The position numbers and the translations under genes were made by a program. From positions 1 through 56,092 of IMG/VR virus record IMGVR_UViG_3300021959_000049: a DNA stretch of 56,092 bases; one strand, 5' to 3'. Positions 1-56,092 of the stretch are shown here, piece by piece (position 1 is the first letter of the stretch; the number at the start of each line of letters is the position of its first letter). The notes under the pieces are model-generated. The model was given only the letters and a program-made list of their open reading frames with translations, did not search any database and was not told the DNA's origin. The DNA is from a virus. Lineage: Duplodnaviria > Caudoviricetes.

Positions 1-126
1 TCTCCTTGACGGGCTCAGCCTTCTCGCCAGCACGACGACCACCACGCAGGACATTGTCGATCTCGCCACCATTACCGAAGTAGATGGAGCGGGCCTTGAT
101 CTCACCAATAGCGCCACGACCAAGGC
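1..126 (+). repeat. Terminal direct repeat, copy 1 (assembly overlap)
   Basis: 1-126 is identical to 55958-56083. Confidence 0.95.
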
Positions 127-412: not shown

Positions 413-441
413 AGTATATCCCAGACTTGTGACTTACACAA
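413..441 (-). promoter_or_regulatory. SigA-type promoter
   Basis: Minus strand TTGTGT-N17-TATACT, about 40 bp upstream of the ATG at 373. Confidence 0.65.
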
Positions 442-3220: not shown

Positions 3221-3669
3221 CAGAACAACTCCGAGTTTTCCATGTGCCACTTCAGCGTGCGGATGTCACGCTCGTCCAGGCCAGCCTGAATGAAGTCCTC
3301 GCCGAAAGTGCTGCACACCAGCACCGTGCCGAACATCACGGCTGGCTCCTTGTTGGTCAGAAGGTAGACCAGCTCCATGAACCGTGTGTTGGGCAGGTCT
3401 TTCTGGTTGTAGAGCGCCTCGTCGTCGTAGATCATCGCAAAGTCTTTGTCGATGTACGCGAACTGGATCGTGCTGACGTTTCCGTACGACGGCATGATGA
3501 TCTCAGGCTCGTACGTGCTATCAGTGAACACAGGCTTGGAGCTGATCAAGTTGCGCCAGCCGTCAAGATCTGGCTCGGTGATCATCTCGATCAGGTGGAT
3601 CGGGCCAAGGTTGTCCGGTGGAACCTTGAGCATCTTGCAAGGGGTCGGGAACGTCTTGCGTTCATTCAT
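3220..3669 (-). CDS. Hypothetical protein (DUF3846-like)
   Basis: DDEALY...PN...FGTVLV...GL pattern; preceded by GAGAAAGGCAA. Confidence 0.7.
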   Translation of the reverse strand: MNERKTFPTPCKMLKVPPDNLGPIHLIEMITEPDLDGWRNLISSKPVFTDSTYEPEIIMPSYGNVSTIQFAYIDKDFAMIYDDEALYNQKDLPNTRFMELVYLLTNKEPAVMFGTVLVCSTFGEDFIQAGLDERDIRTLKWHMENSELF

Positions 3670-3756
3670 TGGTCATTGCCTTTCTCTCGGAAATTTTGAT
3701 GTAGCGATCAAGTGCTGCGTATGCGATCGCATAGGCAGCGAGCTTCATGAGTGAGG

Positions 3757-4053
3757 TCACTTGATCTTGGCGAAGACGTCGGATGCGTCTTGGGTGAAGT
3801 AGTTGTCATTGTTCGTCAGCAGGGTCTGCACGACGGGTTCGCCGACGGCGTCTTCGTGCATCACGCCCAAGCAGCGATCGGCGTCGTCGGAGTCGAAGAT
3901 GCCAAGGGCTGTTCGGCTGTCCATGACCTTGCCGGTCACGGAACACGTGATCAGCTTCTCGACACGCATCGCAATGTCGAGCGCACGGTCGGCTTCGTCG
4001 GTGGTGATTCGGTGCTGCATGGCAGCGTCGATGATCATCTGGGTGGTGTTCAT
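3757..4053 (-). CDS. Hypothetical protein
   Basis: 98 aa; RBS AGAAAG upstream. Confidence 0.75.
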   Translation of the reverse strand: MNTTQMIIDAAMQHRITTDEADRALDIAMRVEKLITCSVTGKVMDSRTALGIFDSDDADRCLGVMHEDAVGEPVVQTLLTNNDNYFTQDASDVFAKIK

Positions 4054-4065
4054 TGTTGTTGCTTT

Positions 4066-4977
4066 CTACTGGTTGATAGATGTCTGGCCGAGATTGGCTC
4101 GGCGTCCTTGAGCCTTACCGGCTCGGTACGCACCACCGTTGAGGTTCCGGTAGCGAGTCTTGGCGATCGACTTGGTCTTGGTCGATGTCACTTCAGTTGG
4201 CTTCGGCGTCGGGTAGCGCTCCTCGAAGAACTCGTCAAGCGCGTTCTTACGGTCGACGAGAACCAAGCCGACCTCCTCGCCCTCGTCGCGTGAGTTACGC
4301 AGGTCACGAAGTCGTGTGGAGATCTCGTTCACGTAGCCGCTGCCGAAGTCACGGCGATAGTAGCGCAGTGAACTGCTGACTTGGCGATCGATGCCGTTGG
4401 CGTCTGCCCACTTCTTGTAGACATTCGTCCAGCGCACGCCATGCTTGCGTTCCCACGGGTGATCCATGTATTCGAGCCCGAGTGCTTTCAGGCGCTTGAG
4501 CCAGATGTCTTTCCAGGTGTAGCCTGACGACTTGAAGGCGTGCAGGTTTTCACCCTCGTCGAGATCTTCGCGCCACACGGGACTCATGTTCGCAAGAATG
4601 TCGACGTACAGCGAAGTGAACAAGATCTCGAGAAAGTCTAGATCCTGAGGCCAGCCGACGCAGAGCCGCTGCAAGCGGTCCTTCTGGTGCGTGAACGGAG
4701 CTGGCCTGACGCCGATGTGCATCGCAAGCGTACTGAACAGCGAATACAGGTTGTCGTTGAAGTCGAAGTCGTACTCGACTAGCGGGAACGAGATGTTCCG
4801 TAGCTCAGGTTCGCGACCCTTGCCGTCCTCCAACGCTTCGAGCATAAACAGCTCGATCGTGTGCTTGCGCATGAGTTCCTCAGCCTTGTTGAAGAAGATG
4901 TCTTTCTCATGCGGGTTCTTGGTGTTGTTCGCTTTGTCAAGCAGACCCTTGACTTTGCGAAGTATCTTGTCTTCCAC
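4066..4977 (-). CDS. DUF2786-domain protein
   Basis: N-terminus KILRKVKGLLDKA...PHE...KAEELMRKH and C-terminus AYRAGKAQGRRANL are typical of the family. GTG start follows GAAAGGCAA. Confidence 0.85.
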   Translation of the reverse strand: MEDKILRKVKGLLDKANNTKNPHEKDIFFNKAEELMRKHTIELFMLEALEDGKGREPELRNISFPLVEYDFDFNDNLYSLFSTLAMHIGVRPAPFTHQKDRLQRLCVGWPQDLDFLEILFTSLYVDILANMSPVWREDLDEGENLHAFKSSGYTWKDIWLKRLKALGLEYMDHPWERKHGVRWTNVYKKWADANGIDRQVSSSLRYYRRDFGSGYVNEISTRLRDLRNSRDEGEEVGLVLVDRKNALDEFFEERYPTPKPTEVTSTKTKSIAKTRYRNLNGGAYRAGKAQGRRANLGQTSINQ

Positions 4978-5015
4978 CTCATTGCCTTTCGTAGATGGTA
5001 GCTGGTAGATATACG

Positions 5016-5044
5016 AGTATACCACAATGCGCCACGTTGCGCAA
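5016..5044 (-). promoter_or_regulatory. SigA-type promoter (extended -10)
   Basis: TTGCGC-N17-TATACT with TGTGG immediately before the -10. Confidence 0.7.
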
Positions 5045-5051
5045 ACGTGGT

Positions 5052-5429
5052 TCAGTCCTCTTCGTCGTGATGTGGATACGCTCTCGATGGCATGGTTCCT
5101 ACTGCCTTCTGGCATTCTGGCGGGAAGTCACAGTCGGACTGATCGCACGATGGGCACGAAGCCGGATCGTAGTCAATTCCTGCAACACCTTCTGCATAAG
5201 CCTGCTCGATTTGCAGATCCACTAGGTGAAGGTAGCTCAGCTCGATCCAATAGGTGTCGTCGCCATCTTCAATCTCAAACAGATTCACGTTGTTGTTTCG
5301 AAGGTAGTATCCGGTGATGCCATCCATTTCGAAACCGGCAAGATCTGCGATGCGCACAGCCAGCTCAATCTCGAAGCGGCTCATCTTTTCGACGGGCACC
5401 ATTCTTGAGTTGATCATCTTCTGCCTCAT
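5052..5429 (-). CDS. Hypothetical protein
   Basis: ATG overlaps the upstream stop; C-terminal Cys cluster. Confidence 0.65.
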   Translation of the reverse strand: MRQKMINSRMVPVEKMSRFEIELAVRIADLAGFEMDGITGYYLRNNNVNLFEIEDGDDTYWIELSYLHLVDLQIEQAYAEGVAGIDYDPASCPSCDQSDCDFPPECQKAVGTMPSRAYPHHDEED

Positions 5430-5935
5430 GCGAGTGACCAGTTCTTGTCTGGATCGTGCAATCGAAGGCACTCGTGATGCGCGTAGGCGGTTCGGTCGGC
5501 TGCTGGGTGAGCGATCTCGCACATGTCCGGATCGGCATCGGGCAGCCAGCGTTCGGAGTAGTTGCCCGTGTCTGGAACCCAGCCTTCACGCACCTCCAGC
5601 GTGCTGTGACAGAAGTGGCAGAGGATGATGCCACGTTCTTCCATCTCTCGCAGCTCGTCTTCGCTGAAGAACGCGCCATCGGGACCGACGTAGTATTCGA
5701 GCGACCAGTCGTGCGACTCGTTCTGATACCAGACCACACCGATTCGGGTGAAGCGCATGTAGGAGTCGAACTTGTCCATCCAGAGCTTGGTTCCACCGTC
5801 ACCGATGGTGATCCGGAACGACTTGCCATCGGCTCGCCCTGCGTTCTCTAGCATGACGTGCTCTGCCAGGTTCAGCATCTGGCGCTGTTGGATCATCGAG
5901 TGATCCGCTGAGTATTGAATCAATGGTTGTTTCAT
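5426..5935 (-). CDS. Hypothetical protein
   Basis: Start MKQPLIQ follows RBS GGATAGGA; C-terminal CHFC motif. Confidence 0.7.
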   Translation of the reverse strand: MKQPLIQYSADHSMIQQRQMLNLAEHVMLENAGRADGKSFRITIGDGGTKLWMDKFDSYMRFTRIGVVWYQNESHDWSLEYYVGPDGAFFSEDELREMEERGIILCHFCHSTLEVREGWVPDTGNYSERWLPDADPDMCEIAHPAADRTAYAHHECLRLHDPDKNWSLA

Positions 5936-5940
5936 ATTTC

Positions 5941-6429
5941 CTATCCTTGGTAGAAGGTCTGGTCGTCCATGTTCGGCCACCAGTAGCTTGGCTCCTGATC
6001 GGGCGCAGGACACGGCTCGTCGAAGAACGGATCGTAGTGGTCGGGCAGCTTCCACATCAGCTTGAGCCGATGCGACTCGTGGAACTTGGGTTCGCCGAGC
6101 CACCACGGATCTTCGGCGGCAAAGCTGAAGCGACCCTGGTGCTGCAAGATGGCGTCGAATCGGTGCAGCCACTCGCTGCACTTCGTGTTGTCGTAGCCGC
6201 GACGTTCCCACTCGTCGCACATCGCGGAAACGTACCAGAACAACGAGGGTTCGTAGCCACGCCACATTCGTGTGGCTGGGTGGTTGGACCAGCCGGAAGG
6301 CGACTGGGGATCGGGATCAAGAAGCGCGTTCATGATCTGGACACCTTCGACTCGTTGTTTGCCGAGCCGTTGGCGATCAAGCACTGCTGCACTTTCGAAG
6401 AAGTCAGCGTGCGGGAGGAAGGTTTGCAT
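5941..6429 (-). CDS. Pyrimidine-dimer DNA glycosylase/endonuclease V-like protein (MSMEG_6728 family)
   Basis: MQTFLP...LDRQRLGKQRVE...HPATRMWRGY...EWERRGY...PWWLG...HESHR...YWWP signature. Confidence 0.9.
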   Translation of the reverse strand: MQTFLPHADFFESAAVLDRQRLGKQRVEGVQIMNALLDPDPQSPSGWSNHPATRMWRGYEPSLFWYVSAMCDEWERRGYDNTKCSEWLHRFDAILQHQGRFSFAAEDPWWLGEPKFHESHRLKLMWKLPDHYDPFFDEPCPAPDQEPSYWWPNMDDQTFYQG

Positions 6430-6464
6430 TGATAGGTTCCTAACTATTAGCGGAGGGGAAACAG

Positions 6465-6494
6465 AGTATAGCACATTGACGCAATGTGCCGCAA
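6465..6494 (-). promoter_or_regulatory. SigA-type promoter with internal palindromic operator
   Basis: TTGCGG-N18-TATACT; the spacer holds GCACATTG-N3-CAATGTGC (6471-6489). Confidence 0.7.
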
Positions 6495-6598
6495 GTCGTG
6501 AACCGAGCCACTTCTGCTAGAGCGAACTCGGTCGAAATAAAATCTGCGACTAGAACTTTTGACGAAAGCAGTTCTGTCACAGCGAACGTAGGGCATAG

Positions 6599-6631
6599 AA
6601 CGACCCCGGCCCAGAACGAACCGGGGTCGTT
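6599..6631 (-). terminator. Intrinsic terminator hairpin
   Basis: AACGACCCCGG...CCGGGGTCGTT just downstream of the 6659 stop. Confidence 0.75.
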
Positions 6632-6658
6632 GAATAGACGAAGTTGGCGCTGCGTTCG

Positions 6659-7042
6659 CTAGCAGCCTGCTCGGCGTTCTGCGTCACGCTCCAGTTCATA
6701 CTGGAGCCGATCGTCGAGAGCCTGCTCGAGCAGTTCGATGCTGCGGGTTCGGACGTTGTGGTCCGGGTAGCGAACTACCTTGTTTCCACGGCATTCTGGG
6801 CAGGGCTTGTCGAACGCACCTTCCATGACTGAGTTGTGAAGATCGGGATCTTCGTCAAAGTCTTGAGGGTACAGAACGATGCCGTCCCAGGTGATTCCGC
6901 TGCCTTCGCAGTCGCGGCAGACATCCGTGAGAAGGTGGATCTCCTCGAGGTGGAAGTCAGACTCGGGATCTGTTCGCAGCAACTGGATGGAGTCGAAGAC
7001 CGGCCAGGCGATGGGAATCATCAGGTTGTTGAAGTGGGTCAT
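6659..7042 (-). CDS. Hypothetical protein with DnaJ-like CxxCxG motifs
   Basis: VCRDCEGSG...PCPECRGNKVV; ATG follows AGAAAGGCAA. Confidence 0.8.
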   Translation of the reverse strand: MTHFNNLMIPIAWPVFDSIQLLRTDPESDFHLEEIHLLTDVCRDCEGSGITWDGIVLYPQDFDEDPDLHNSVMEGAFDKPCPECRGNKVVRYPDHNVRTRSIELLEQALDDRLQYELERDAERRAGC

Positions 7043-7058
7043 GTTTGCCTTTCTTGGC

Positions 7059-7535
7059 TCAGTACGAGCCGTCGAGAACGTGGTCCGGGAGGTTGGCGAA
7101 CTGGTCTTCGCCGCTGAGTGCGTCGTGTTCGGCGACCCAGGCGTCGTACCGACGATAGATCCAGTCGGCATCGTCGGCGTCTTCGGCCCAGCGGGTCGCT
7201 TCGGCGAGGTACGACATGGCTGCACGAAGGTCGCGAGGAGCAACATTGTCACAGATCCGGGTCGTCTCGTTCAGGACCTTGTTGAAACCATCGCTGGTGT
7301 TTTCGGTCCATCGGGGCTGACCCTCGTCGGTGCGAATGTCATGAAGCTTCGTCAGAAGCATCATGTCCTTGACCTTGGCGTTCATGTCGCGAACCCAGGC
7401 ACGCTTGGCCCAGACGAACGCGTCGTTCGGGCTGACTTCTTGCGTGCCCATCTCGCAGTCGTGGCACATGTAGTCGATCCCGCATCCACCGACGTAGACG
7501 CCATGGATGCAGTTCGGGAACGGATGTTGATTCAT
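7059..7535 (-). CDS. Hypothetical protein
   Basis: CIHGVYVGGCGIDYMCHDCE N-terminus; GAAAGGCAAC upstream. Confidence 0.8.
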   Translation of the reverse strand: MNQHPFPNCIHGVYVGGCGIDYMCHDCEMGTQEVSPNDAFVWAKRAWVRDMNAKVKDMMLLTKLHDIRTDEGQPRWTENTSDGFNKVLNETTRICDNVAPRDLRAAMSYLAEATRWAEDADDADWIYRRYDAWVAEHDALSGEDQFANLPDHVLDGSY

Positions 7536-7663
7536 TGGAAGTTGCCTTTCCTAGTGGTAGACCCGGAGGTGGATCTACTCCAAAGGATCCAGGGCAAGGA
7601 GGAAACCCTGGATCCAATGGGCTAGATCCAACTAGCAGGATGGTTCAGTTGTGCATGTTCACC

Positions 7664-7969
7664 TCACTTGATCAACACGACGGGGAAGTACGTGGGGACG
7701 TCCCGGTCGATCGTGCGGAACCACGGCTCGGCGTAGTTCTCGCGAGGAACTCGGACAACGCCAGCAAGGGAGCTGATGGAGTTCGGTGGGTCGATCTCGC
7801 GGATTTCTTGGGCAGTCGGACGGTCGATCTCAACAACGAGATCGTCGTCGCTGTTTTCAAGCCACGCGAAATCATCGAGGCGATCGTTGTTCATAACGAC
7901 TGCTGCAATGTGAAGCAAGTGCAGCTTCTCGCTAGGGAAGCAGCCATGCGTATTGATGTTGATCTTCAT
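7664..7969 (-). CDS. Hypothetical protein
   Basis: ATG follows AGAAAGGCAA. Confidence 0.7.
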   Translation of the reverse strand: MKININTHGCFPSEKLHLLHIAAVVMNNDRLDDFAWLENSDDDLVVEIDRPTAQEIREIDPPNSISSLAGVVRVPRENYAEPWFRTIDRDVPTYFPVVLIK

Positions 7970-8044
7970 TATTGCCTTTCTAGTACCTGCGGTACTCGAA
8001 AGCGCACCGCCCCCTGAGGAACAGGCGATGCGCAATCGGCTACA

Positions 8045-8239
8045 TCAGGTAGCTGGGGGAACCGTCACCGCAGATTCGTAGCTTTCGTCTGCGTCTTGCT
8101 GGATCAGCCAGTCGCAGCCTGCCTGGTGATCCATCTCGTGGGTCCGCGATCCCGGCATGTATTTCCAGGTCGCACCACAAGCGAAGCACGGAGCGTAGAA
8201 GCTGAGGTGGTGGGGTGGTTCAAAGTGTTCGTCGAACAC
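8045..8239 (-). CDS. Small Cys/His protein
   Basis: GTG follows AGAAAGGCAAC; CFAC...HQAGC. Confidence 0.65.
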   Translation of the reverse strand: MFDEHFEPPHHLSFYAPCFACGATWKYMPGSRTHEMDHQAGCDWLIQQDADESYESAVTVPPAT

Positions 8240-8256
8240 GGTGGTTGCCTTTCTTG

Positions 8257-8472
8257 TTAGGCGCAACTGCCGTTCGGGCAGTCAGGCCAGATGGAGAATA
8301 CTACGAACAAGGCTGCAAATATCACGATCGTGTAGATCCAGCCTCGAAGTTTGGGGTTGTCGTAGAACAAGGTTCTCTCCTTAGTTGCCTTGGGTGCTGG
8401 AAGCACCCGGAACCAGACTGCCAGCACGGCAGCATGGAACCGGCTGTTGCCAGCAGGCAATGTCAGAACCAA
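8257..8472 (-). CDS. Small membrane protein (start uncertain)
   Basis: C-terminal TM segment WIYTIVIFAALFVVFSIW; lies downstream of the promoter at 8548. Confidence 0.45.
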   Translation of the reverse strand: MVLTLPAGNSRFHAAVLAVWFRVLPAPKATKERTLFYDNPKLRGWIYTIVIFAALFVVFSIWPDCPNGSCA

Positions 8473-8547
8473 CTTCGTCTATTCAGTTTTCAAGTATCAA
8501 AGCCGCTGCGTTCGGGTGGTTCCAGCGGGGCTATGTGCGCCACTGAG

Positions 8548-8576
8548 AGTATACCGCACTGGGGCACGTTGCGCCA
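8548..8576 (-). promoter_or_regulatory. SigA-type promoter
   Basis: TGGCGC-N17-TATACT; shares GCGCAACGTG with the 5016-5044 promoter. Confidence 0.6.
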
Positions 8577-8727
8577 GTCACTTGAAGGGCGGGATGCTTC
8601 TGTAAAATTTCACGGGTTCGGGAGTTCCCCTGGGGCACAATGGGGCTTCGGCCTATAGGGAGGGGTTCCATAATTCATGAGAGGAGGAGGTCCAGGGTTC
8701 CACCGAGATATCCGGGGGATCCCCCTC

Positions 8728-8823
8728 TGTTCTTGAGTTCTGGTGTTCGTTAGTTCTTGACTTCTGCCCTTCGGGAGTTCTGGTGTTCGTGAGTTCTGTC
8801 ATTCGTCGGTTCTGGCGTTCGTG
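8728..8823 (+). repeat. Degenerate tandem array of 12 x 8-bp units (nnTTCnnn)
   Basis: tgttcttg agttctgg tgttcgtt agttcttg acttctgc ccttcggg agttctgg tgttcgtg agttctgt cattcgtc ggttctgg cgttcgtg. Confidence 0.85.
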
Positions 8824-8927
8824 TTCTTGCCCAGGGAAGCGAACCAACGAACCCTTGAAGGGAATCCGGTGATTGTGTTCGTCCGTTCATCGGTTCCATT
8901 TCTGCCTGACCGAACCACGGGCAGACG

Positions 8928-8957
8928 AAAGCCCCACCAGCCGAAGCCAGTGGGGCT
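8928..8957 (-). terminator. Intrinsic terminator with UUCG tetraloop
   Basis: Minus-strand RNA AGCCCCACUGGC-UUCG-GCUGGUGGGGCU-UU after the 8986 stop. Confidence 0.85.
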
Positions 8958-8985
8958 GTTCGCCCGGATCAGTTGTGGGTTGGAA

Positions 8986-9564
8986 CTAGCTCTTCAGCTC
9001 GGTGTAGAGCTTGACGAGGTTCGCCTTGCCCTTCGGCATGGCGCCTTCGTGGCCCATGGAGCGGATCGCCGCACGGAGAAGCGGCATGGACATGTTGGAC
9101 GGATCGGCCACCTGCGCGACCGCCGAATCCAACTTCGTGCCGGGGACCACTTCCACTCCGGTGCCCTGCCGTTCGGCTGCGTACAGCTCGGCGCCCTGTT
9201 CGTCGCCCCAGAACCGGCCGCCCTTTCCGGTTCGCGTGCCGACCGACTGGACGTTCGTGTAGCGCTCGAACAGCTTCCGGCAGTACGACTCGTTCAGGCA
9301 CAGGGTCGTGGCGATCTCGCCCCAGGACTGCTTCAAGTCGCGGAGTTCGGTGACCGCGACCGACTGGGTCGCTTCGGGCATTCCGCGCATGTCGTTGCAC
9401 TCGCCGTTCAGGGCCTTGATGGCCCACGTGACGAACTGCCATGCCGGGCTGTAGCTGACGCCTTCGGCCTTGTGGGCTTCGGCGAGTGGGGTTCCGTCCA
9501 GGACGGCTTCGAGGATGCTGTTCAGCGTTCCCTCGTCATATTTGGTGTTCAGGTAGAATTCCAC
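8986..9564 (-). CDS. HTH-like DNA-binding protein, paralog 1 (C-terminal Rho-N/HeH-like domain)
   Basis: GTG follows GAAAGGCAAC; LRDLKQSWGEIATTLCLNESYCRK helix-turn-helix pattern; aligns end to end with 10151-10732. Confidence 0.85.
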   Translation of the reverse strand: MEFYLNTKYDEGTLNSILEAVLDGTPLAEAHKAEGVSYSPAWQFVTWAIKALNGECNDMRGMPEATQSVAVTELRDLKQSWGEIATTLCLNESYCRKLFERYTNVQSVGTRTGKGGRFWGDEQGAELYAAERQGTGVEVVPGTKLDSAVAQVADPSNMSMPLLRAAIRSMGHEGAMPKGKANLVKLYTELKS

Positions 9565-9614
9565 TTCGTTGCCTTTCGTGTAGTGGATCAGGGGCGCACT
9601 GCGCGCCCACTGAG

Positions 9615-9643
9615 AGCCTACCAGATAGGGCACTCCGCGGCAA
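9615..9643 (-). promoter_or_regulatory. SigA-type promoter
   Basis: TTGCCG-N17-TAGGCT; shares GTGCCCTA...GGTAG with the 10908 promoter. Confidence 0.65.
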
Positions 9644-9677
9644 CTCACCGCGTTCGCCTGTTCCGGTAGGACAGCTT

Positions 9678-9867
9678 GGTTCTGCCCTTCGGGCAGTTAT
9701 GGGTTCGGGGGTTCTGTCGTTCGGTTCTGACAAAGTCGGACCCCGAAGGGCCTCCTTTCATTGGTTCCATTTCAGGGCAAGTTCTGACGGGTTGGTTCTG
9801 TCAAAACGAGCCCCGAAGGGACGTCTCCCTTCTAGGGTTCTGCCTTTCGGGGGTTCTGCCCTTCGGG
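9678..9867 (+). repeat. Second cluster of 8-bp TTC-core units
   Basis: ggttctgc ccttcggg ... ggttcggg ggttctgt cgttcggt (from 9678) and ggttctgc ctttcggg ggttctgc ccttcggg (9836-9867). Confidence 0.7.
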
Positions 9868-9900
9868 GGTGTTGGTTCTGTCATGTTCGAACCGGGGCAA

Positions 9901-9935
9901 AGAAAGACCCCGGTCGCCACTCGGACGCCGGGGTC
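9901..9935 (-). terminator. Intrinsic terminator
   Basis: Minus strand GACCCCGG...CCGGGGTC followed by TTTCT. Confidence 0.8.
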
Positions 9936-9939
9936 AGTC

Positions 9940-10053
9940 TCACTCGATGATTCCCTTCTCCTTGAGCTTCTTGCGGAGGACGCTGCTCACAAGGCTCGCC
10001 GTCAGGTAGCCGGCGACTTGGGAGGCCATCAGTTTCAGGTGGAGCTTCTTCAT
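9940..10053 (-). CDS. 37-aa basic amphipathic peptide
   Basis: MKKLHLKLMASQVAGYLTASLVSSVLRKKLKEKGIIE; preceded by CTACCATCTACGAAAGGCAAC and followed by a terminator. Confidence 0.7.
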   Translation of the reverse strand: MKKLHLKLMASQVAGYLTASLVSSVLRKKLKEKGIIE

Positions 10054-10081
10054 GAAGTTGCCTTTCGTAGATGGTAGGGGT

Positions 10082-47495: not shown

Positions 47496-50257
47496 GCTGG
47501 AATCTCCCTGATTAGCTCAATGATCTGTGGCGTCATAGCGTACTGTTCCCCGTGCTTGTCTAGGAATCCCATCTGGTACAGGTTGGATGCTTCCTGCACG
47601 GCCTGACTGAACTCAGCGTATGCCGCCATGTTCCTAAGCTCAAGTGCGCTGAAGAATCCGTCCACGCCCCGAAGGTACACCGTCAGCTCTCTGTTGTTGA
47701 TGAGCATGGTCTTTGCGTTGTCCCAGTTCTCATGGGCACGCTTGACCCTGCTGTTCTCCAGCTTGCTGACATGACCGTAGCCAAACTGCTGCCGGTCGTA
47801 GATCGAGCGCAGGAACTTAGCCGCTAGCGAAACGTGGTCCGGCCTGACAATCAAGCGCACGCCATCGTCAGTGCTGAACGTGCGAGCCGCGATGGCAGCC
47901 GCCACCCGAGCCAGCTTTACCCTGACGTTAGCCTGCTGAATCAGCGGCGGTCTACTGGCGTAGTCTTCGCCCAGGGTGATGGCCTTCTCGTAAATGGCTT
48001 CTAGCGTGTCACGACCGATGACCACATCTTCCGGTGTGCGGGACCACGCCCAGCCAACCACCTTCTGCAATAGTTCCGGAGCGTACTGACGTTCTGGCCT
48101 GCTGTCTGTGATCTGATTGGCACGCTCGGTGCCGGGGTCGTTGCTGTGAACGCTCATGGCCATGTCAAAGCGAGCCAAGTCCTCAGGCTTCTCTACTAGG
48201 TCCTGCAACATTCTGACGCCGCTGCTGTAGTGCAGGTCGCTGCTGCGAGGGTTACCGATCCAAAGCAGGCGTGTTCTGGCAAGGGTGCGGTCGCTGCGGA
48301 TCTTGGTCAGCTCGGCGATGCCACTAGAGCGCATGGCACTCAGGTGACCGATCTCCTCGCTGTTGAAACCACTGACCTCATCCAGCACTACCAGCCCACG
48401 GTCGTTCATGGGGATGACGCCCCACGTTGTGACCCACTCCTTGCCAGACATCTGCTGAACACCGCCCAGCACACCGGCCAGACTTGAACTTTCAAGACTG
48501 ACCATTTCGCCACGGCGGTACATCTGCCTGAGGCGACTAGCTGCCTCGGACTTACCGGTTCGGGTCTCGCCAACGACGACTGCGTCTAGCCAACCCTTTG
48601 TAACTTCTTCGTCGCCCAGGTTGAACCGCATCACGCTGTGCCATACCAGATCCATGAAGATGTGCATGTTGCTGCGACCGTAAATGTGAGTCACATGTTC
48701 TGCCAGGTCGTCCGCTATTGAGCGGAGCTTCTTGCCGACCTTGCCCACCGGGGCCGAAACCAAGTCGTGAAGGGTTGCCACCTCGTCATCGGTCATCGAC
48801 CAAGTGTCGAGGTCTGTTTCAATGGCTGAGCTTGCCCAGCCCACGACCTCGTTCTTGTTGTTCTGTGGGTTGACACGCTGCTCGCCAATGAGCTTGACGC
48901 CCTTGTTGGCAGTGATGTCGTGCAGCCCCACGATGTGAAACTGCCGCATCGTAGTGACGTCGTTGTTGGTCAGGTCTGATGCGTCCTCGTCGAAGAACTG
49001 CGTGGCAAACACTTTCGTGACGCTGTGCATGTCGTCGATCTGGTATCTGAAGCTAGGACAGTCCTCACCCTTGAGCGGGCTTGCATCTACGATTGACTTG
49101 CGCTCGCTACGGTTGCCGCCGTACAGAACATGCAGCAAGCCAGGGTCATTCTGACTGAGTGCGATGTTGGTCTTGCCACCCAGGCCGTTCATCGGGCAGG
49201 CGAGGCAGCGGTCGTCTTGGTCTTGACCGCACTTCAGAGCAACCCTGTGCGGGTACAGGAACTGGTCCTGAGCTACACCGCCCACCCTGATGCGCATCGG
49301 TGATGCCTTGCCGAAGTTGTCACCGTCCAAGGATTCAAGAACGCTGAGCACATCTGCTGGCTCTTGCTCGGGGCCAGAAAGTAGTTCTGCAAAGTCCTCT
49401 GCCGTATGGCCATCTCTAACGAAGTAGTCCGAGAGGTCATAGCCTTTCTCGTCACTGGGCAGGCTGACCGTAGTAACACGGTTCGCGATACCAGCCAGCT
49501 CAGTTTCGATAATCAGGTTTGCCTTCGCACCTTTCTCGTCCATGTCATGACACGCGATGACATCAAGACCTTCGAACTGCTCATTCCAAGTTGAGTGCCA
49601 GGTGTCGGCTCCACCCGTCCTCGTGATAGCCAAGACACCATTCTGGATTGCAACCAATGCATCCCACTCGCCTTCGCAAACCACGATCTGCCCGTGCTCA
49701 TGTGCTTCCTCCAAGATGCTGTGCGGATACAGAACCGGCTGACCGTGACCCTTGACGTTCCTGATCTTTGGGAACTCTGGGCCTGGGTCTGGGTCGTACC
49801 GGCGCACGTTCTGCAACTGACCCTCCCAATACACTGGGATCGTGTAGACCTCGCGCAGCGGGTCGTAGCCGATCTCAAACTCCTTGAGAGTCTCACGGCT
49901 CAGGCCACGGTCTTTGGTCAAGTATGAACGCTCAGTGCGGAACTCCTTGCTCAGCAAGAACTTGTGCCAACGCCGCACCTGCTTCTGGCTGAGAGTCTCG
50001 CCCTTGCTGCGACGCTCACGCTTACTGCGCACCTCGGCGCTACCCCACTCGCCGCCTGCCAGCGTCGCTACCAGAGCGTCCACAGGACCGCCCTGGCTGC
50101 ACCCGTGGCAGTACCAGACCTGATTGGGCACGTTGACGCTAGCGCTGCGCCTCGTGTCTTGATGATCCGGGTGTGGGCAGTGCATCGCCCACTCACCGGT
50201 TGATTCGTCGTAACTGCCAACTACGTAGGCCAGCAGTTCTACTGGGATCCCCGTCAT
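47492..50257 (-). CDS. DnaG-type primase fused to an MCM-like AAA+ helicase
   Basis: Zn finger CPHPDH...CHGC; TOPRIM VCEGEWD and HDMD; GETRTGKS; VVLDE; RLLWIGNP; LARFD Arg finger. Confidence 0.88.
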   Translation of the reverse strand: MTGIPVELLAYVVGSYDESTGEWAMHCPHPDHQDTRRSASVNVPNQVWYCHGCSQGGPVDALVATLAGGEWGSAEVRSKRERRSKGETLSQKQVRRWHKFLLSKEFRTERSYLTKDRGLSRETLKEFEIGYDPLREVYTIPVYWEGQLQNVRRYDPDPGPEFPKIRNVKGHGQPVLYPHSILEEAHEHGQIVVCEGEWDALVAIQNGVLAITRTGGADTWHSTWNEQFEGLDVIACHDMDEKGAKANLIIETELAGIANRVTTVSLPSDEKGYDLSDYFVRDGHTAEDFAELLSGPEQEPADVLSVLESLDGDNFGKASPMRIRVGGVAQDQFLYPHRVALKCGQDQDDRCLACPMNGLGGKTNIALSQNDPGLLHVLYGGNRSERKSIVDASPLKGEDCPSFRYQIDDMHSVTKVFATQFFDEDASDLTNNDVTTMRQFHIVGLHDITANKGVKLIGEQRVNPQNNKNEVVGWASSAIETDLDTWSMTDDEVATLHDLVSAPVGKVGKKLRSIADDLAEHVTHIYGRSNMHIFMDLVWHSVMRFNLGDEEVTKGWLDAVVVGETRTGKSEAASRLRQMYRRGEMVSLESSSLAGVLGGVQQMSGKEWVTTWGVIPMNDRGLVVLDEVSGFNSEEIGHLSAMRSSGIAELTKIRSDRTLARTRLLWIGNPRSSDLHYSSGVRMLQDLVEKPEDLARFDMAMSVHSNDPGTERANQITDSRPERQYAPELLQKVVGWAWSRTPEDVVIGRDTLEAIYEKAITLGEDYASRPPLIQQANVRVKLARVAAAIAARTFSTDDGVRLIVRPDHVSLAAKFLRSIYDRQQFGYGHVSKLENSRVKRAHENWDNAKTMLINNRELTVYLRGVDGFFSALELRNMAAYAEFSQAVQEASNLYQMGFLDKHGEQYAMTPQIIELIREIPA

Positions 50258-50521: not shown

Positions 50522-50573
50522 CGCGATCTCTTAGTGGTTCGGTAACGGGTCGTCGCTACCATAGCTCTTACGA

Positions 50574-50611
50574 GGGGCGACTCGGCAACGCTCAGGCTGC
50601 CGAGCCGCCCC
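50574..50611 (-). terminator. Terminator after SSB
   Basis: GGGGCGGCUCGGCA...UGCCGAGUCGCCCC, 14-bp stem. Confidence 0.75.
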
Positions 50612-50624
50612 CGGTAGGACCTGC

Positions 50625-53222: not shown

Positions 53223-53325
53223 AAGTTACACTCAGCGTATACCCGAGCCCTCGTGGCAGTAGAGGGGGTGATGAGGCCATGCAATCGCCCCACAATCAGT
53301 CGCGTATACACTGAGTGCAACTTAG
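53223..53325. promoter_or_regulatory. Two divergent copies of the GTATACRCTGAGTGYAACTT motif
   Basis: 53223-53245 is the exact 23-bp reverse complement of 11788-11810; 53304-53325 matches 11791-11812 with 2 mismatches. Confidence 0.85.
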
Positions 53326-55424
53326 GCTCGGAACTCAGCGGAAAACCCGCCTCTACGGGCATCCAGAACGTTCCAGTTCTGCTCTGCCTTGCCCTTTGTA
53401 GTGTTCCAGATGTGGTGTTCTACTGTGCCTACGCTCCGTAGATAGTGAATGGTTACCTGATCTGTCTTGGACGTCCGGTGCGCACGGTCTTCAGCCTGCT
53501 CCTGGTCGTCTGGATCCCACATCTCGTCCATGAACACAACGGTGTTGCACGTTTCCAAGTTGATGGCCACGCCACCAGCCTTCGTGTTCATGATCATGAC
53601 GTCTAGCTCTTTGTTCCTAAACTTCTCTTGCGCAAGGTCGCGATCCTCTAGCTTCACGTCGCCGGTGATCTTGGCGACCCGCATGTAACGCTTGCGCATC
53701 CACGTGACCAGCAGATCAGCCATGTCTGTGAACTGCGTAAAGACGATGAGCTGCTCTTGCCTGTCGTTGGCAGGGATGTCTTTCTCAAGACCAATTTCTG
53801 CCATGATCTCATCGAGCTGGTCCAGCTTGCCTGAGTTCTCTAGCGGGCGCAGCTTCAGCTTGTCCTTGGTGATGCCAGTCTCAGGATCAATGTCCTTGCC
53901 GACCACTTCAACAACGCACTCTGCGTTAGCGAACTGCTTGAGGCGTGTGTATTCAGCCAAGATGCCAACAGCGCCCAGATTCTGCTCCTGGATAGTGATC
54001 TCAGCGTCTGCCGCGAACTGCTTGTACTGCTTCAACTGGGCAGGCTTCATCTCGCAGTTGTGGTGAACGTACTGCTTAGGTGGAAGCCAGCTTGCGACCT
54101 CCTCTTTGCGATGCCGCACCATGTAGCGCTTCAGCATCTCCCAGAAGGCATCCTCGCGATCTTTGCGGACGCCACCGAACTGTGCGCTGGCGTAGTTGTT
54201 CCACTTGTTGCCCTCGCTGATGACCTCTAGGTACATTCTGCCAAAGGCATTCTTGCTGGTAAAGATCTCAGGCTCTAGCCACTGCAAGATGCCGAACAGC
54301 CTGATGGGTTTGCCGCCCATCGGCGTGCCGCTAAGCGCGATCTTCTTGTTGGCCTTGAGCTTGCGCATGGCTCTGCTGCTGAGCGTGCTGGGGTTACCCA
54401 TGCCCATTCTGTGAAACTCGTCTAGGATCACTGCGCCCCACTCGATCTCATGAAACTCAGGGTACACAGAGACTGTGTCAACGAGAACTTTCTCGCCTGT
54501 CCAGTTGTCGATCTTGTAGTTGCCCTTGAAGCGAATCATCTCAGGATTGCACACGACCCAGAAGTTACGGTCGCCATCTTTGTAGCGCTGATGGGCCTCG
54601 GCCAGGGTGCTGAGCCGCTCCTGCTTGCTCCCTGTGGCGAGGTATACGTCGTCCTGCTGCCAATGCGTTAGCTCGCTCGCCCACACTCGGTTGATGGCCG
54701 TAAGCGGGCACACGACGAGCCACGGGCCTGCCACTTGACCCTCAATAATGGCACCGATGGTTTCAATCGTCTTGCCGACACCAGGCTGATTGCCGTTCAG
54801 CGGGTTAGGGCAGTCAGCAAGGAACTTGACATCTGTCGTTTGGTAGCTGGGCTCCCAGTTCTTGAACGCATCGTTCTTGTCACGGACGCTCATGTCCTTG
54901 CCACGAGGACCGATGTGCAGCGCTCGGTAGAGCTTGCGATTGTTCTCAGCAATGATGGGCAGCTCGCTGTAAGGGCTGTCCAGGATCTTCGTGACGTGAG
55001 AGATCTTGGCCTTCTCTGCCTTGATGAACTCAGCGACTTTCGGGTGCCAGCTCACGTTGCCGTTGAACTTACGCTTCAGAACGCTGCTGAGGATCCGCAA
55101 GTTGTCCAGCCGCTTTGGAACGGTCTGAATGTATTCCCAGAAGCCCGTGTCGTCCTTGATGCTGTCACGCTTGTATCCAGGTGTCTCGGCGATCGCACCG
55201 TTGCACCACATCCACCGAGCCCAGTCGCTGTCTTTCATGTAGCGGCTGTAGGTATCGTTGACCTTGCTGATGTCTTCAGGAGTCGCTTCTGGCGTCAACC
55301 TCGGCAGGGTTTCCTGTGCCTCCTTGCGATCCATGGACTTGATCTCAACCAGGCCGTCTTCAGTGCGGTGCGGCAAGACCCAGATGAATGTGTGTCGCTT
55401 CTCTGGTACAAACAGGTCACTCAT
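53322..55424 (-). CDS. SNF2-family (SF2) helicase
   Basis: PGVGKT, ILDEFH, LSGTP, VFTQF, GGVAINL and QAEDRAHR motifs. Confidence 0.93.
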   Translation of the reverse strand: MSDLFVPEKRHTFIWVLPHRTEDGLVEIKSMDRKEAQETLPRLTPEATPEDISKVNDTYSRYMKDSDWARWMWCNGAIAETPGYKRDSIKDDTGFWEYIQTVPKRLDNLRILSSVLKRKFNGNVSWHPKVAEFIKAEKAKISHVTKILDSPYSELPIIAENNRKLYRALHIGPRGKDMSVRDKNDAFKNWEPSYQTTDVKFLADCPNPLNGNQPGVGKTIETIGAIIEGQVAGPWLVVCPLTAINRVWASELTHWQQDDVYLATGSKQERLSTLAEAHQRYKDGDRNFWVVCNPEMIRFKGNYKIDNWTGEKVLVDTVSVYPEFHEIEWGAVILDEFHRMGMGNPSTLSSRAMRKLKANKKIALSGTPMGGKPIRLFGILQWLEPEIFTSKNAFGRMYLEVISEGNKWNNYASAQFGGVRKDREDAFWEMLKRYMVRHRKEEVASWLPPKQYVHHNCEMKPAQLKQYKQFAADAEITIQEQNLGAVGILAEYTRLKQFANAECVVEVVGKDIDPETGITKDKLKLRPLENSGKLDQLDEIMAEIGLEKDIPANDRQEQLIVFTQFTDMADLLVTWMRKRYMRVAKITGDVKLEDRDLAQEKFRNKELDVMIMNTKAGGVAINLETCNTVVFMDEMWDPDDQEQAEDRAHRTSKTDQVTIHYLRSVGTVEHHIWNTTKGKAEQNWNVLDARRGGFSAEFRA

Positions 55425-55533
55425 CGCCCTGGTCCCACGGTCCGGTTCTGCGAGAAGCCGGGTCTGGATGGTACACGCAGCCCCGCAGGTGTTCCTCTTT
55501 GTCAGTTCGTTTTCTACAATATTCGCATTGCAT
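55417..55533 (-). CDS. 38-aa Zn-finger-like peptide
   Basis: MQCEYCRKRTDKEEHLRGCVYHPD...; RBS AGGAG; overlaps the helicase start. Confidence 0.55.
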   Translation of the reverse strand: MQCEYCRKRTDKEEHLRGCVYHPDPASRRTGPWDQGDE

Positions 55534-55608
55534 GATTAGCTCCTAGGGATGCCGAAATGCCGCAGATTTGCTCTGCGACTGTTTGAGAGATCTAGTTTGT
55601 TCTGTAGA

Positions 55609-55721
55609 GGTTGGGTGGCCCTCGGGAGAAAGGCAACAGAAACTCCCGAGAGCCGCCCAACCCCTCCGACTTACTTCTGTTCAGCCGGAAAGATTGAGCC
55701 TGAGGATAGGATGTTAGCTCA
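55609..55721 (-). ncRNA. Candidate antisense (anti-RBS) small RNA
   Basis: 20-bp stem (55609-55662) whose minus-strand loop is UUUCUGUUGCCUUU, plus CUAUCCUCAGG at 55709-55699; both are complementary to early-gene RBS regions. Confidence 0.5.
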
Positions 55722-55957
55722 TCGAGCCGTGATCTTTGCGATATCGCCCTGCTCGAGACCCCACTCGTCGCCATCGGCGTCGGTGATCTCGAACATGCCA
55801 TTGGATTCTGCCACCATGACCGCCTTGAGCTTGTCGCCATCGGTCGTGTGAACGAACTTGTTGACCATCGCCTTGACGAGTTCGTCAGCAGTCATTTCGC
55901 TGACATTGGCCGGTGCCTTCTTGGCAGGGGCCTTCTTGGCGGGTGCCTTGGCTGCCT
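55719..55957 (-). CDS. C-terminal part of the junction-spanning HTH-like protein (AKKAP-repeat linker plus small domain)
   Basis: Continues in frame as ...KAAKAPAKKAPAKKAPANVSEMTADELVKAMVNKF...IAKITAR*, with TGA at 55721-55719. Confidence 0.8.
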
Positions 55958-56083
55958 TCTCCTTGACGGGCTCAGCCTTCTCGCCAGCACGACGACCACC
56001 ACGCAGGACATTGTCGATCTCGCCACCATTACCGAAGTAGATGGAGCGGGCCTTGATCTCACCAATAGCGCCACGACCAAGGC
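55958..56083 (+). repeat. Terminal direct repeat, copy 2 (assembly overlap)
   Basis: Identical to 1-126. The last 9 nt (56084-56092) diverge and form a fold-back. Confidence 0.95.
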
Positions 56084-56092
56084 CCGCTCCAT

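What the first reader, a model, noticed from the sequence alone, without database searches (positions are those of the whole stretch)
55609..55721. Candidate phage small RNA presenting antisense loops against the ribosome-binding sites of nine early genes
Seen: downstream of the junction-spanning HTH gene is a 20-bp stem (GGTTGGGTGGCCCTCGGGAG / CTCCCGAGAGCCGCCCAACC) closing the loop AAAGGCAACAGAAA. On the minus strand, the direction of all flanking genes, the loop and the top of the stem read UUUCUGUUGCCUUUCUC. This is a perfect 9-11 nt complement of the (A)GAAAGGCAA(C) motif before the starts at 3669, 4977, 7042, 7535, 7969, 8239, 9564 and 10053. Separately, 55699-55709 reads CUAUCCUCAGG on the minus strand inside a short TGAGC/GCTCA stem. 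That is the perfect 11-nt complement of the RBS (CCUGAGGAUAG, 10747-10737) of HTH paralog 2, an early gene that lacks the GAAAGGCAA motif. Inference: one RNA of about 110-190 nt, possibly 3'-UTR-derived, carries two seed loops that shut off translation of the early regulon, by analogy with P1 c4 and P4 CI antisense RNAs but multi-target. Alternatively, a plus-strand transcript could act as an RBS decoy for a translational repressor.
Basis: partly seen in the sequence, partly recalled or inferred. Interest (0 to 1): 0.9.

Follow-up and report, generated by a model that had tools for sequence, protein, structure and literature searches.

The report
Phage hairpin loop mirrors start motif
The strongest RNA hairpin of this uncultured estuarine phage carries in its open loop the exact mirror image of a ribosome-binding tag found before eight early genes, and related phages show the same design with their own tags, so one phage RNA probably controls translation of a whole gene set.

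Summary
The main observation holds. GAAAGGCAA occurs 9 times (0.37 expected): 8 copies lie 2-6 nt before minus-strand start codons, and the ninth lies inverted in the 14-nt loop of the genome's strongest hairpin (55604-55667, -44.8 kcal/mol).

The second "seed" (11 nt, 55699-55709) exists but is at chance level. About 6.6% of random 192-nt windows match some start region equally well.

The decisive result is comparative. Distant relatives (SNF2 helicase 31-43% identical) have different start-associated motifs. Where an antisense copy of 9 nt or more exists (6 of 10 sequences, the window among them), it lies in the loop of a very stable hairpin on the gene-sense strand. In the syntenic hairpin before the helicase gene, the loop changes with the motif: window GUUGCCUUUCU, L141 UGUACCCUCC, L127 UGACCCUUC.

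Cluster K1 mycobacteriophages show the same layout for their published start-associated sequence (SAS).

A 3.5%-divergent strain differs between 55514 and 55868 only by one compensatory pair in the neighbouring small hairpin.

No transcript data exist. Several SAS-bearing phages lack the antisense loop.

Best reading: an anti-SAS hairpin RNA pairs with the tagged ribosome-binding sites. Repression and trans action are inferred, not shown.

Earlier notes of this scan report the same design in other genomes.

The parts
55604..55667 (-). Main hairpin: 22 pairs (10 + 12, one unpaired position on each arm) closing a 14-nt loop. It lies in the gap between the HTH/AKKAP-repeat gene and the 38-aa ORF plus SNF2 helicase gene.
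   Evidence: Sequence. Folds (-44.8 kcal/mol, the strongest hairpin in the window). Invariant in a strain about 3.5% divergent. Syntenic with the hairpins of L141, L138 and L127 before SNF2.
55627..55637 (-). Anti-motif: the minus-strand RNA reads GUUGCCUUUCU, the complement of the start-associated consensus AGAAAGGCAAC. Nine of the 11 nt are unpaired in the loop (loop = 55629-55642).
   Evidence: It is the only copy of the 9-mer outside the eight start sites.
55666..55688 (-). Small hairpin 5' of the main one (CCGGCU/AGUCGG stem, including a G.U pair that would be a C.A mismatch on the plus strand).
   Evidence: Fold. The only two differences from the variant strain between 55514 and 55868 are 55683 A>G and 55671 T>C. 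These are the two sides of one predicted pair (U-A to C-G), seen in runs of 3 studies.
55699..55709 (-).
   Evidence: Present but at chance level. Not counted as part of the mechanism.
55534..55603 (-). Invariant spacer with an 8-bp hairpin (55559-55579), followed by the AGGAG ribosome-binding site of the 38-aa ORF.
   Evidence: Fold. No differences in the variant strain.
3676..10066 (-). Eight start-associated copies of GAAAGGCAA at 10058-10066, 9569-9577, 8245-8253, 7972-7980, 7542-7550, 7045-7053, 4982-4990 and 3676-3684. Each lies 2-6 nt before a start codon of an early gene.
   Evidence: The six products I scanned have no Pfam family. Several sites are preceded by CTACCAnCTAC, hairpins or promoter-like TTGCSS-17-TAnnCT sequences, read by eye.
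55719..55957 (-). 3' part of the upstream gene (203 aa; it starts at 373 and crosses the junction). The product has an HTH-like part and AKKAP repeats. The hairpins lie in its 3' untranslated region.
   Evidence: A homologous gene lies before the hairpin in L141.
53322..55533 (-). Downstream genes: a 38-aa Cys-rich ORF (55417-55533) overlapping the start of the SNF2 helicase gene (53322-55424).
   Evidence: Pfam PF00176 and PF00271 are on record for the helicase.

Best explanation
The eight early genes carry a private 'start-associated sequence' (SAS). It consists of a Shine-Dalgarno core, AGAAAGG, followed by CAAC.

The hairpin at 55604-55667 is part of the minus-strand transcript, in the 3' UTR of the HTH/AKKAP gene and ahead of the replication genes. 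It holds the exact antisense of that tag single-stranded in a 14-nt loop on top of a 22-bp stem.

I propose that this very stable hairpin survives as an RNA fragment or stays on the long transcript. Its loop would pair with the tags (9-11 bp, about -16 to -18 kcal/mol) and compete with the 16S rRNA 3' end. Translation of the tagged genes would then be turned down together as the hairpin RNA builds up.

Shown: the motif set, the hairpin, its conservation, and co-variation of loop and tag across relatives.

Inferred: that the RNA exists as a stable species, that pairing happens, that it acts in trans, and that the effect is repression.
For: 1. Motif statistics: 9 copies against 0.37 expected. 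The only copy away from a start site is inverted in the loop of the strongest hairpin. The other top hairpins have loops of 4-7 nt; this one has 14.

2. Co-variation in the homologous, syntenic hairpin before SNF2:
- window: tag AGAAAGGCAAC, loop GUUGCCUUUCU
- L141, L138, L137 and L136: tag GGAGGGTACA (12 of 12 copies in L141), loop UGUACCCUCC
- L127: tag AAGGAGGGTCA, loop UGACCCUUC (9 bp including one G.U)
The 5' half of the loop (UUUCUG / UCUGU) is shared. Source.

3. Other relatives with other hairpins:
- L126: tag GGAGGGTACC, loop GGUACCCUCC. The A/C difference from L141 is matched by U/G in the loop.
- L128: tag AAAGGAGCCA, loop UGGCUCCUUU.
- L087: tag AGGAGGTAG, loop CUACCUCCU.
- L123: 8 nt only.
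Source.

4. Counts:
- Six antisense sites of 9 nt or more in 10 sequences, against 1.9 expected from shuffled motifs and 0 for the complement control.
- All 7 sites (including the 8-nt one) are at least 70% unpaired, enclosed by 8 or more pairs, and in a local fold of -40 kcal/mol or better. Only 4 of 1050 random positions meet all three conditions.

5. Strand: the covariance model scores 98 bits on the sense strand against 45 bits on the other. There is also a G.U pair in the small hairpin.

6. The variant strain shows one compensatory pair and nothing else across 355 nt.

7. Independent parallel in Cluster K1 mycobacteriophages:
- In Anaya and Adephagia the single reverse SAS copy noted by Pope et al. 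2011 (PMC3203893, passages) is the 10-nt loop CCUCCUAUCC of a hairpin in an intergenic gap, on the gene strand.
- The hairpin has compensatory changes across 10 phages.
- In Adephagia late transcription is reported to start in that gap (PMC11373665, passages).
Against: - No RNA evidence of any kind exists for this phage. No consensus promoter or U-tract terminator lies around the hairpin, so a discrete small RNA is not shown.
- The window's own lineage gives no loop or tag variation, because the hairpin is invariant. I could not lay reads on the tag sites.
- By energy alone, 7 of 300 shuffled loops pair as well with the start regions, because a pyrimidine-rich loop fits purine-rich RBSs.
- The design is not universal. 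TM4 and Pixie (0 reverse copies) and Microbacterium phage AnnaSerena (only a 9-of-10 copy inside the DnaE gene) have tags but no antisense copy. Neither do the fetched parts of L159, L115/L114 and L093/L118.
- In 3 of 10 sampled Cluster K phages (Amgine, Ekdilam, SirPhilip) the hairpin is kept but the loop has drifted while the SAS is unchanged.
- I read the tag consensus sequences by eye.
- The 'reversed' control gave 8 sites. I consider it unsuitable because GGAGG reads the same backwards, but it is a warning.
- The relatives were all found through one helicase, so the lineages are not fully independent.
Confidence: 0.55

Rival explanations
1. The hairpin is only a structural RNA signal: a U-tract-less terminator, an RNase III-type processing site or a 3' stabiliser between the early genes and the replication genes. 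The loop's match to the RBS tag would then have no function.
For: It lies exactly between two gene blocks, right after a stop codon. A 22-bp stem is the size class of double-strand-specific RNase substrates (established knowledge, recalled). A second strong hairpin lies in another intergenic gap at 50566-50619. Several relatives have small-loop hairpins before SNF2. In L087 the antisense hairpin is followed at once by a terminator-like hairpin. By energy, 7 of 300 shuffled loops do as well.
Against: It does not explain why the loop follows each phage's private tag. It does not explain why all long antisense copies fall in loops of very stable hairpins, or why this loop is 14 nt when the other strong hairpins have 4-7 nt. 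No U-tract follows the stem on either strand. A structural role and a pairing role can also coexist.
Confidence: 0.2
2. The loop acts in cis only. It pairs with a tag on the same transcript, for example the RBS of the next or the preceding gene, to set translation or decay of that one message. It would not act as a diffusible multi-target regulator.
For: In L141 and L138 a tag copy that serves the SNF2 gene lies about 45-90 nt downstream of the hairpin. In L126 an orphan tag copy with no start codon lies 73 nt upstream of the hairpin. In the window the best predicted partner of the loop is the RBS of the upstream gene itself (start 373, -18.7 kcal/mol with G.U pairs).
Against: In the window the RBS directly downstream (AGGAG of the 38-aa ORF) is not the tag. 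The loop matches the consensus of 8-12 dispersed sites rather than one particular site.
Confidence: 0.15
3. The motif is a DNA site for a phage protein, comparable to the asymmetric stoperators of Cluster A mycobacteriophages. The inverted copy would be one more binding site, perhaps exposed by cruciform extrusion.
For: Pope et al. 2011 left open whether an RNA or a protein binds the SAS, and thought the extended SAS repeats more likely to be protein sites (PMC3203893, passages). HTH-like genes lie beside the element. The compensatory pair A-T to G-C fits DNA as well as RNA.
Against: The fixed position 2-6 nt before start codons and the Shine-Dalgarno core point to the RNA level. G.U pairs and the strand asymmetry of the covariance model scores (98 against 45 bits) point to an RNA fold. 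A duplex DNA site has no need to lie in a hairpin loop in seven separate cases.
Confidence: 0.07
4. A plus-strand transcript shows the tag itself in a loop, as a decoy for a translational repressor or for ribosomes.
For: The plus-strand RNA would also fold (-38.9 kcal/mol for the hairpin; z -3.4 for 192 nt).
Against: All flanking genes are on the minus strand, and no promoter-like site was found on the plus strand. No start codon follows the plus-strand copy. In the relatives and in Cluster K the copy is antisense on the strand of the genes. The small hairpin has a C.A mismatch on the plus strand.
Confidence: 0.03

Closest known systems
[quoted passage not shown] 2011, PMC3203893; Adephagia study, PMC11373665; survey of 188 genomes, PMC12699233)
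   Same: An asymmetric motif longer than a Shine-Dalgarno site lies 3-9 nt before the starts of 11-19 non-structural genes, in one orientation, with promoters or inverted repeats just upstream. [quoted passage not shown] I found that this copy forms the loop of a conserved hairpin, as in the window.
   Different: The motif differs (GGGATAGGAGCCC against AGAAAGGCAAC) and the phages share no nucleotide similarity. In the passages I read, the papers give no function and do not mention a hairpin or antisense role for the reverse copy. In K1 the hairpin lies in the gap where late transcription starts; here it lies before the replication genes.
SAS/ESAS-like motifs of Microbacterium Cluster EF phages (AnnaSerena; Jacobs-Sera et al. 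2020, PMC7302621)
   Same: Ten copies of GGGAAAGGACCCC at RBS positions. The genome is about 56.7 kb, circularly permuted, with DnaE-like, ThyX and primase genes (passages). The motif shares the GAAAGG core with the window's tag.
   Different: I found no convincing antisense copy in AnnaSerena.
c4 antisense RNA of phages P1 and P7 and CI RNA of P4; sar RNA of P22 (recalled from general knowledge, not from any call)
   Same: Phage-encoded RNAs whose exposed loops pair with the ribosome-binding region of phage messages and block their expression. They are cut out of longer transcripts.
   Different: Those RNAs act on one target message and belong to defined families. Rfam found none of these families here. 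The element here matches a tag repeated on 8 genes and co-evolves with it.
3'-UTR-derived bacterial small RNAs (recalled; for example the MicL processing preprint listed, listing only)
   Same: The position directly after a stop codon, and a stable terminal hairpin that could survive processing.
   Different: No processing site, 3' end or chaperone is known here. The seed lies in the apical loop of the long hairpin rather than in a single-stranded 5' region.
Stoperators of Cluster A mycobacteriophages (mentioned in PMC3203893)
   Same: Many copies of a 13-bp asymmetric site, in an orientation tied to the direction of transcription.
   Different: Stoperators are DNA sites for the repressor and act on transcription. 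The motif here lies at the Shine-Dalgarno position, and its inverted copy is shown in an RNA loop.

Membership tests
SAS-type start-associated motif system | A conserved asymmetric motif, longer than needed for 16S pairing, a few nt upstream of many start codons | tested here: met
   Eight exact 9-mers lie 2-6 nt before starts, against 0.37 expected. Pairing of AGAAAGG with the 16S 3' end is recalled and also stated in scan note e1-6326978; it was not tested.
SAS-type start-associated motif system | Copies limited to non-structural genes and all in one orientation relative to the genes | tested here: met
   All 8 copies lie in the early region 3.6-10.1 kb on the minus strand. None lies in the structural block from 12 to 41 kb.
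SAS-type start-associated motif system | Sequence identity with the Cluster K consensus GGGATAGGAGCCC, or kinship with Cluster K phages | tested here: not met
   The motif is different. The closest cultured phages are only 29-35% identical in the helicase and in the capsid protein. It is the same kind of system, not the same family.
SAS-type start-associated motif system | An extended upstream element (promoter or inverted repeat) at a subset of sites | tested here: inconclusive
   CTACCAnCTAC, hairpins and TTGCSS-17-TAnnCT sequences precede several sites, but I read them by eye only. The consensus promoter scan did not flag them.
Phage antisense RNAs of the c4 / CI type | Match to the curated RNA family (Rfam C4) | tested here: not met
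   No Rfam match reaches a gathering score in the window. With permissive settings there are only miRNA-precursor-like matches of 16-29 bits, against cut-offs of 53-80.
Phage antisense RNAs of the c4 / CI type | Exposed loop complementary to the ribosome-binding region of a phage message | tested here: met
   Nine of 11 complementary nt are unpaired in the loop. Predicted duplexes with the 8 tagged start regions are -15.8 to -18.1 kcal/mol.
Phage antisense RNAs of the c4 / CI type | A discrete stable RNA with defined ends | not testable with these tools
   No RNA run holds the sequence. Only DNA contigs were laid.
Intrinsic (rho-independent) terminator | G+C-rich stem with a short loop, followed by a run of U | tested here: not met
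   No terminator-like site was found in 55000-56092. The stem is followed by CCUCUACAGAAC on the minus strand and CCCUCCGACUUAC on the plus strand. The loop is 14 nt.
RNase III-type processing hairpin (as between T7 early genes; recalled) | About two helical turns of double-stranded RNA between cistrons, and cleavage by the enzyme | not testable with these tools
   The stem length (22 pairs) and the intercistronic position fit. Cleavage cannot be tested here.

The most novel reading that the evidence does not exclude
Start-associated sequences are one half of a two-part translational code. A phage marks a set of genes with a private extension of the Shine-Dalgarno site. It also encodes one very stable hairpin whose loop imitates the 16S rRNA 3' end plus that private extension.

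This anti-SAS RNA would time or cap translation of the whole tagged set. It is found in several actinophage-like lineages, including Cluster K1 mycobacteriophages, and it would explain a motif whose function has been open since 2011.
Probability: 0.45. Interest if true: 0.85.

Novelty: new variant of a known kind. Interest (0 to 1): 0.78.

Why it matters
Start-associated sequences have been described in mycobacteriophages since 2011 and later in Microbacterium phages. In passages I read from papers of 2024 and 2025, their role is still called unclear.

A co-varying antisense loop supplies a concrete RNA partner. It also supplies a simple decisive experiment, compensatory loop and tag mutations, which can be done in culturable Cluster K1 phages.

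If the reading is true, it is a compact way for a phage to address many messages with one RNA, independent of the host's regulators. It would also give a portable pair of orthogonal RBS tag and repressor RNA.

Tried and rejected
1. Close relatives. IMG/VR, JGI metagenomes and species genomes gave only distant relatives or none.

2. Loop 16-mer in IMG/VR. It gave 84 stretches. None shows it in the loop of a comparable hairpin, so these are chance matches.

3. Expression. No RNA holder was listed. Only DNA contigs could be laid, and part of the stretch had no cover in run X21.

4. Rfam and tRNA scans found nothing usable.

5. Consensus promoter and terminator scans were uninformative. TATACT alone is not enriched: 8 copies against 5.7 expected.

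6. A first automatic screen with 8-mers and weak hairpins was too permissive and was dropped.

7. A screen with one top 9-mer per locus missed L141 and L138, because the loop covers a shifted part of the tag. I replaced it with consensus-based searches.

8. The 'reversed motif' control proved unsuitable.

9. MAFFT could not put the window hairpin in register with those of L141 and L138. Model R1, built from L141 and L138 only, did not find the window hairpin. Homology of the window hairpin therefore rests on synteny, the shared 14-nt loop size and the shared 5' half of the loop.

10. The second seed was rejected as a chance-level match.

11. Literature. Searches were run. Eight papers hold 'start-associated sequence'. 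I read passages of PMC3203893, PMC7302621, PMC12699233, PMC11373665, PMC13596312 and PMC9262239. None mentions a hairpin or antisense role for the reverse SAS copy.

Full report
**What the window is.** It is an IMG/VR virus record rated 100% complete. Its ends overlap: bases 1-126 equal 55958-56083, followed by a 9-nt foldback tail. The genome is therefore a 55,957-bp circle or a permuted linear molecule. Contigs of other runs run straight across this junction (loose ends at 56083).

Genes on the minus strand run from about 12.1 kb down to 1, across the junction, and on from 56 kb to 41 kb. The structural genes lie on the plus strand from 12 to 41 kb.

The capsid protein and the SNF2 helicase have their best cultured relatives, at only 29-35% identity, among phages of Gordonia, Mycobacterium, Streptomyces, Arthrobacter and Rhodococcus. 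Runs that hold the sequence are estuary, marine and sediment metagenomes. An actinobacterial host is likely but not shown.

**Checking the observation.**
- As minus-strand RNA the hairpin has 22 pairs and a 14-nt loop, UUUCUGUUGCCUUU (55642 down to 55629).
- At -44.8 kcal/mol it is the most stable hairpin found on either strand. The other strong hairpins have loops of 4-7 nt.
- GAAAGGCAA occurs 9 times against 0.37 expected. The ninth is the loop copy, inverted.
- With its flanks the loop copy equals the 11-nt consensus AGAAAGGCAAC.
- The variable spacing and the purine core fit a Shine-Dalgarno element with a conserved 3' extension. Other genes of the phage use related but less uniform sites.

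**The second seed.** The 11-mer at 55699-55709 is real, but it also occurs at 31788. A match of that length to one of 72 start regions is found for 6.6% of random windows. I drop it.

For the main loop, an energy-based test is less impressive than the exact-match count. The eight tagged start regions are within the best 11 of 72, and 7 of 300 shuffled loops do as well.

**Evidence from a variant strain.** Contigs from three studies carry a strain about 3.5% different over 55200-56083: 31 differences in 884 nt in one record.

Between 55514 and 55868 there are only two differences, 55683 A>G and 55671 T>C. These are the two partners of one predicted pair (U-A becomes C-G) in the small hairpin at 55666-55688, just 5' of the main hairpin. 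That hairpin also has a G.U pair, which would be a C.A mismatch on the plus strand.

This supports a selected fold and slightly favours the minus strand. The main hairpin, its loop and the 70 nt that follow are invariant, so this lineage gives no test of the loop.

**Relatives.** Close relatives exist (helicase 55-73% identical), but their contigs could not be fetched. The relatives I could reach have helicases 31-43% identical. Many of them carry their own start-associated motif:
- AAAGGAGGGTACA: L141 (12 copies) and L138
- AAAGGAGGGTACC(A): L126 and L123
- AAAGGAGCCA: L128
- AGGAGGTAG: L087
- AGGAGACGAACGATG: L159
- GACCCAAGGAGGTCA: L114 and L115
- CTAGGAGGT: L093

I searched the gene-sense strand for antisense copies of 9 nt or more. 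There were 6 in 10 sequences: the window, L141, L138, L126, L128 and L087. Shuffled motifs predict 1.9 in total, and the complement control gave 0. L123 has an 8-nt copy.

All seven sites are at least 70% unpaired, are enclosed by 8-32 pairs and lie in local folds of -40 to -61 kcal/mol. Only 4 of 1050 random positions of the same sequences meet all three conditions.

L159, L114/L115 and L093 have no such copy in the parts I hold.

**Homology and co-variation.** In L141 the gene order is: an HTH-like protein with AKKP repeats, a 108-aa gene, the hairpin, then SNF2. In the window it is: an HTH-like protein with AKKAP repeats, the hairpin, a 38-aa ORF, then SNF2.

A covariance model built from the L141 and L138 hairpins finds the same element in L137 and L136. 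It also finds a divergent one in L127, again just before SNF2 (36 bits, E about 1e-4). The sense strand scores 98 bits and the antisense strand 45.

The stems of L141 and L138 differ by several compensatory changes. The loops are all 14 nt:

| Phage | Loop | Its tag |
|---|---|---|
| window | UUUCUGUUGCCUUU | ...GGCAAC |
| L127 | UUUCUGACCCUUCG | ...GGGTCA |
| L141 | CUGUUGUACCCUCC | ...GGGTACA |

The 5' half of the loop is shared. The 3' half follows each phage's tag.

The window hairpin itself was not found by the narrow model and could not be aligned by MAFFT. Its homology therefore rests on synteny and loop features.

**Cluster K mycobacteriophages.** Pope et al. [quoted passage not shown] They left open whether an RNA or a protein binds the SAS (PMC3203893, passages).

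I found the reverse copy (12 of 13 positions) in Anaya at 59870-59882 and in Adephagia at 58682-58694. In each phage it lies in a non-coding gap between genes on the same strand.

In both phages the core CCUCCUAUCC is the 10-nt loop of a hairpin with a GCGCGG/CCGCGC inner stem and a longer outer stem.

The region is found in 133 phage records. In an alignment of 10 of them, chosen for spread, 7 of 35 predicted pairs show changes on both sides, and several changes on one side give G.U pairs on the sense strand.

In Adephagia, late transcription is reported to start between genes 92 and 93, which is this gap (PMC11373665, passages).

Evidence against a strict requirement:
- Three of the 10 phages (Amgine, Ekdilam, SirPhilip) keep the hairpin but have drifted loops, although their SAS is unchanged.
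- TM4 and Pixie have no reverse copy.
- Microbacterium phage AnnaSerena, with ten copies of GGGAAAGGACCCC, has none either.

**Mechanism.**

Shown:
- a private RBS tag on eight early genes
- a single antisense copy held open in the loop of an exceptionally stable, conserved hairpin on the transcribed strand
- co-variation of loop and tag across lineages

Inferred:
- The hairpin persists as RNA, either because its 22-bp stem protects it or because it is cut out.
- The loop pairs with the tags over 9-11 bp and competes with the 16S 3' end.
- Translation of the tagged genes falls as the hairpin RNA accumulates, giving a delayed negative loop on the early genes.

The direction of the effect, trans against cis action, and any helper protein or nuclease are open. 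I give the pairing model 0.55. The rivals are a purely structural hairpin with a meaningless loop match (0.2), a cis-only role (0.15), a DNA-site explanation (0.07) and the plus-strand decoy (0.03).

**Novelty.** Antisense RNAs that cover an RBS are a known kind (P1/P7 c4, P22 sar; recalled). SAS motifs are known too. The link between them is not in the papers I could search: a co-evolving antisense loop as the partner of a multi-gene start tag (passages of six papers). One cited paper and all supplements were not seen.

Earlier AI notes of this scan report the same design in other genomes. They are not independent evidence, but they agree with this reading.

Noticed in passing
window 1-126 and 55958-56092: The record's ends overlap by 126 nt, and the last 9 nt are a foldback of 56041-56049. 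This looks like an assembly artefact. The real genome is 55,957 bp, although the record is classed as 'linear, no end repeats'.
   Followed up: yes
window 50566-50619 (minus strand): The second-strongest hairpin (-38.8 kcal/mol, about 20 pairs, 6-nt loop) lies in the 367-nt gap before the primase-helicase gene that starts at 50257. Its role is unknown, and its loop is not antisense to the tag.
   Followed up: partly
window 55905-55950: The AKKAP-repeat part of the junction gene varies between strains by 15-nt insertions. It also attracts many unrelated contigs, being a low-complexity Ala/Lys/Pro repeat.
   Followed up: no
window 55417-55533 (minus strand): A 38-aa ORF with a CxxC...H..GC..H pattern and an AGGAG site overlaps the SNF2 start (ATGA). 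Six of its eight strain differences cluster in codons 26-29 of its tail.
   Followed up: partly
window 413-418, 5016-5021, 6465-6470, about 9600 and about 10910 (minus strand): Promoter-like sequences of the form TTGCSS / TTGTGT, 17-18 nt, then TATACT / TAGGCT / TAGACT precede the genes starting at 373, 4977, 6429, 9564 and 10732. They were read by eye. The consensus scan did not flag them.
   Followed up: partly
L126 708-716: An orphan copy of the tag GGAGGGTACC with no start codon after it lies 73 nt upstream of the antisense-loop hairpin at about 750-812. Tag and loop could pair within one RNA.
   Followed up: no
L162 (Anaya) 683-1067; alignment A3: The Cluster K gap holds a canonical terminator, a second conserved hairpin with compensatory changes, and then the anti-SAS hairpin. 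Some annotations place a 'hypothetical protein' over it (for example Validus gene 103).
   Followed up: partly
window loop 55637-55642; L127 4612-4617; L141 9535-9539: The 5' half of the 14-nt loop (UUUCUG / UCUGU) is shared by window, L127 and L141 although the tags differ. No explanation so far accounts for this shared part.
   Followed up: no
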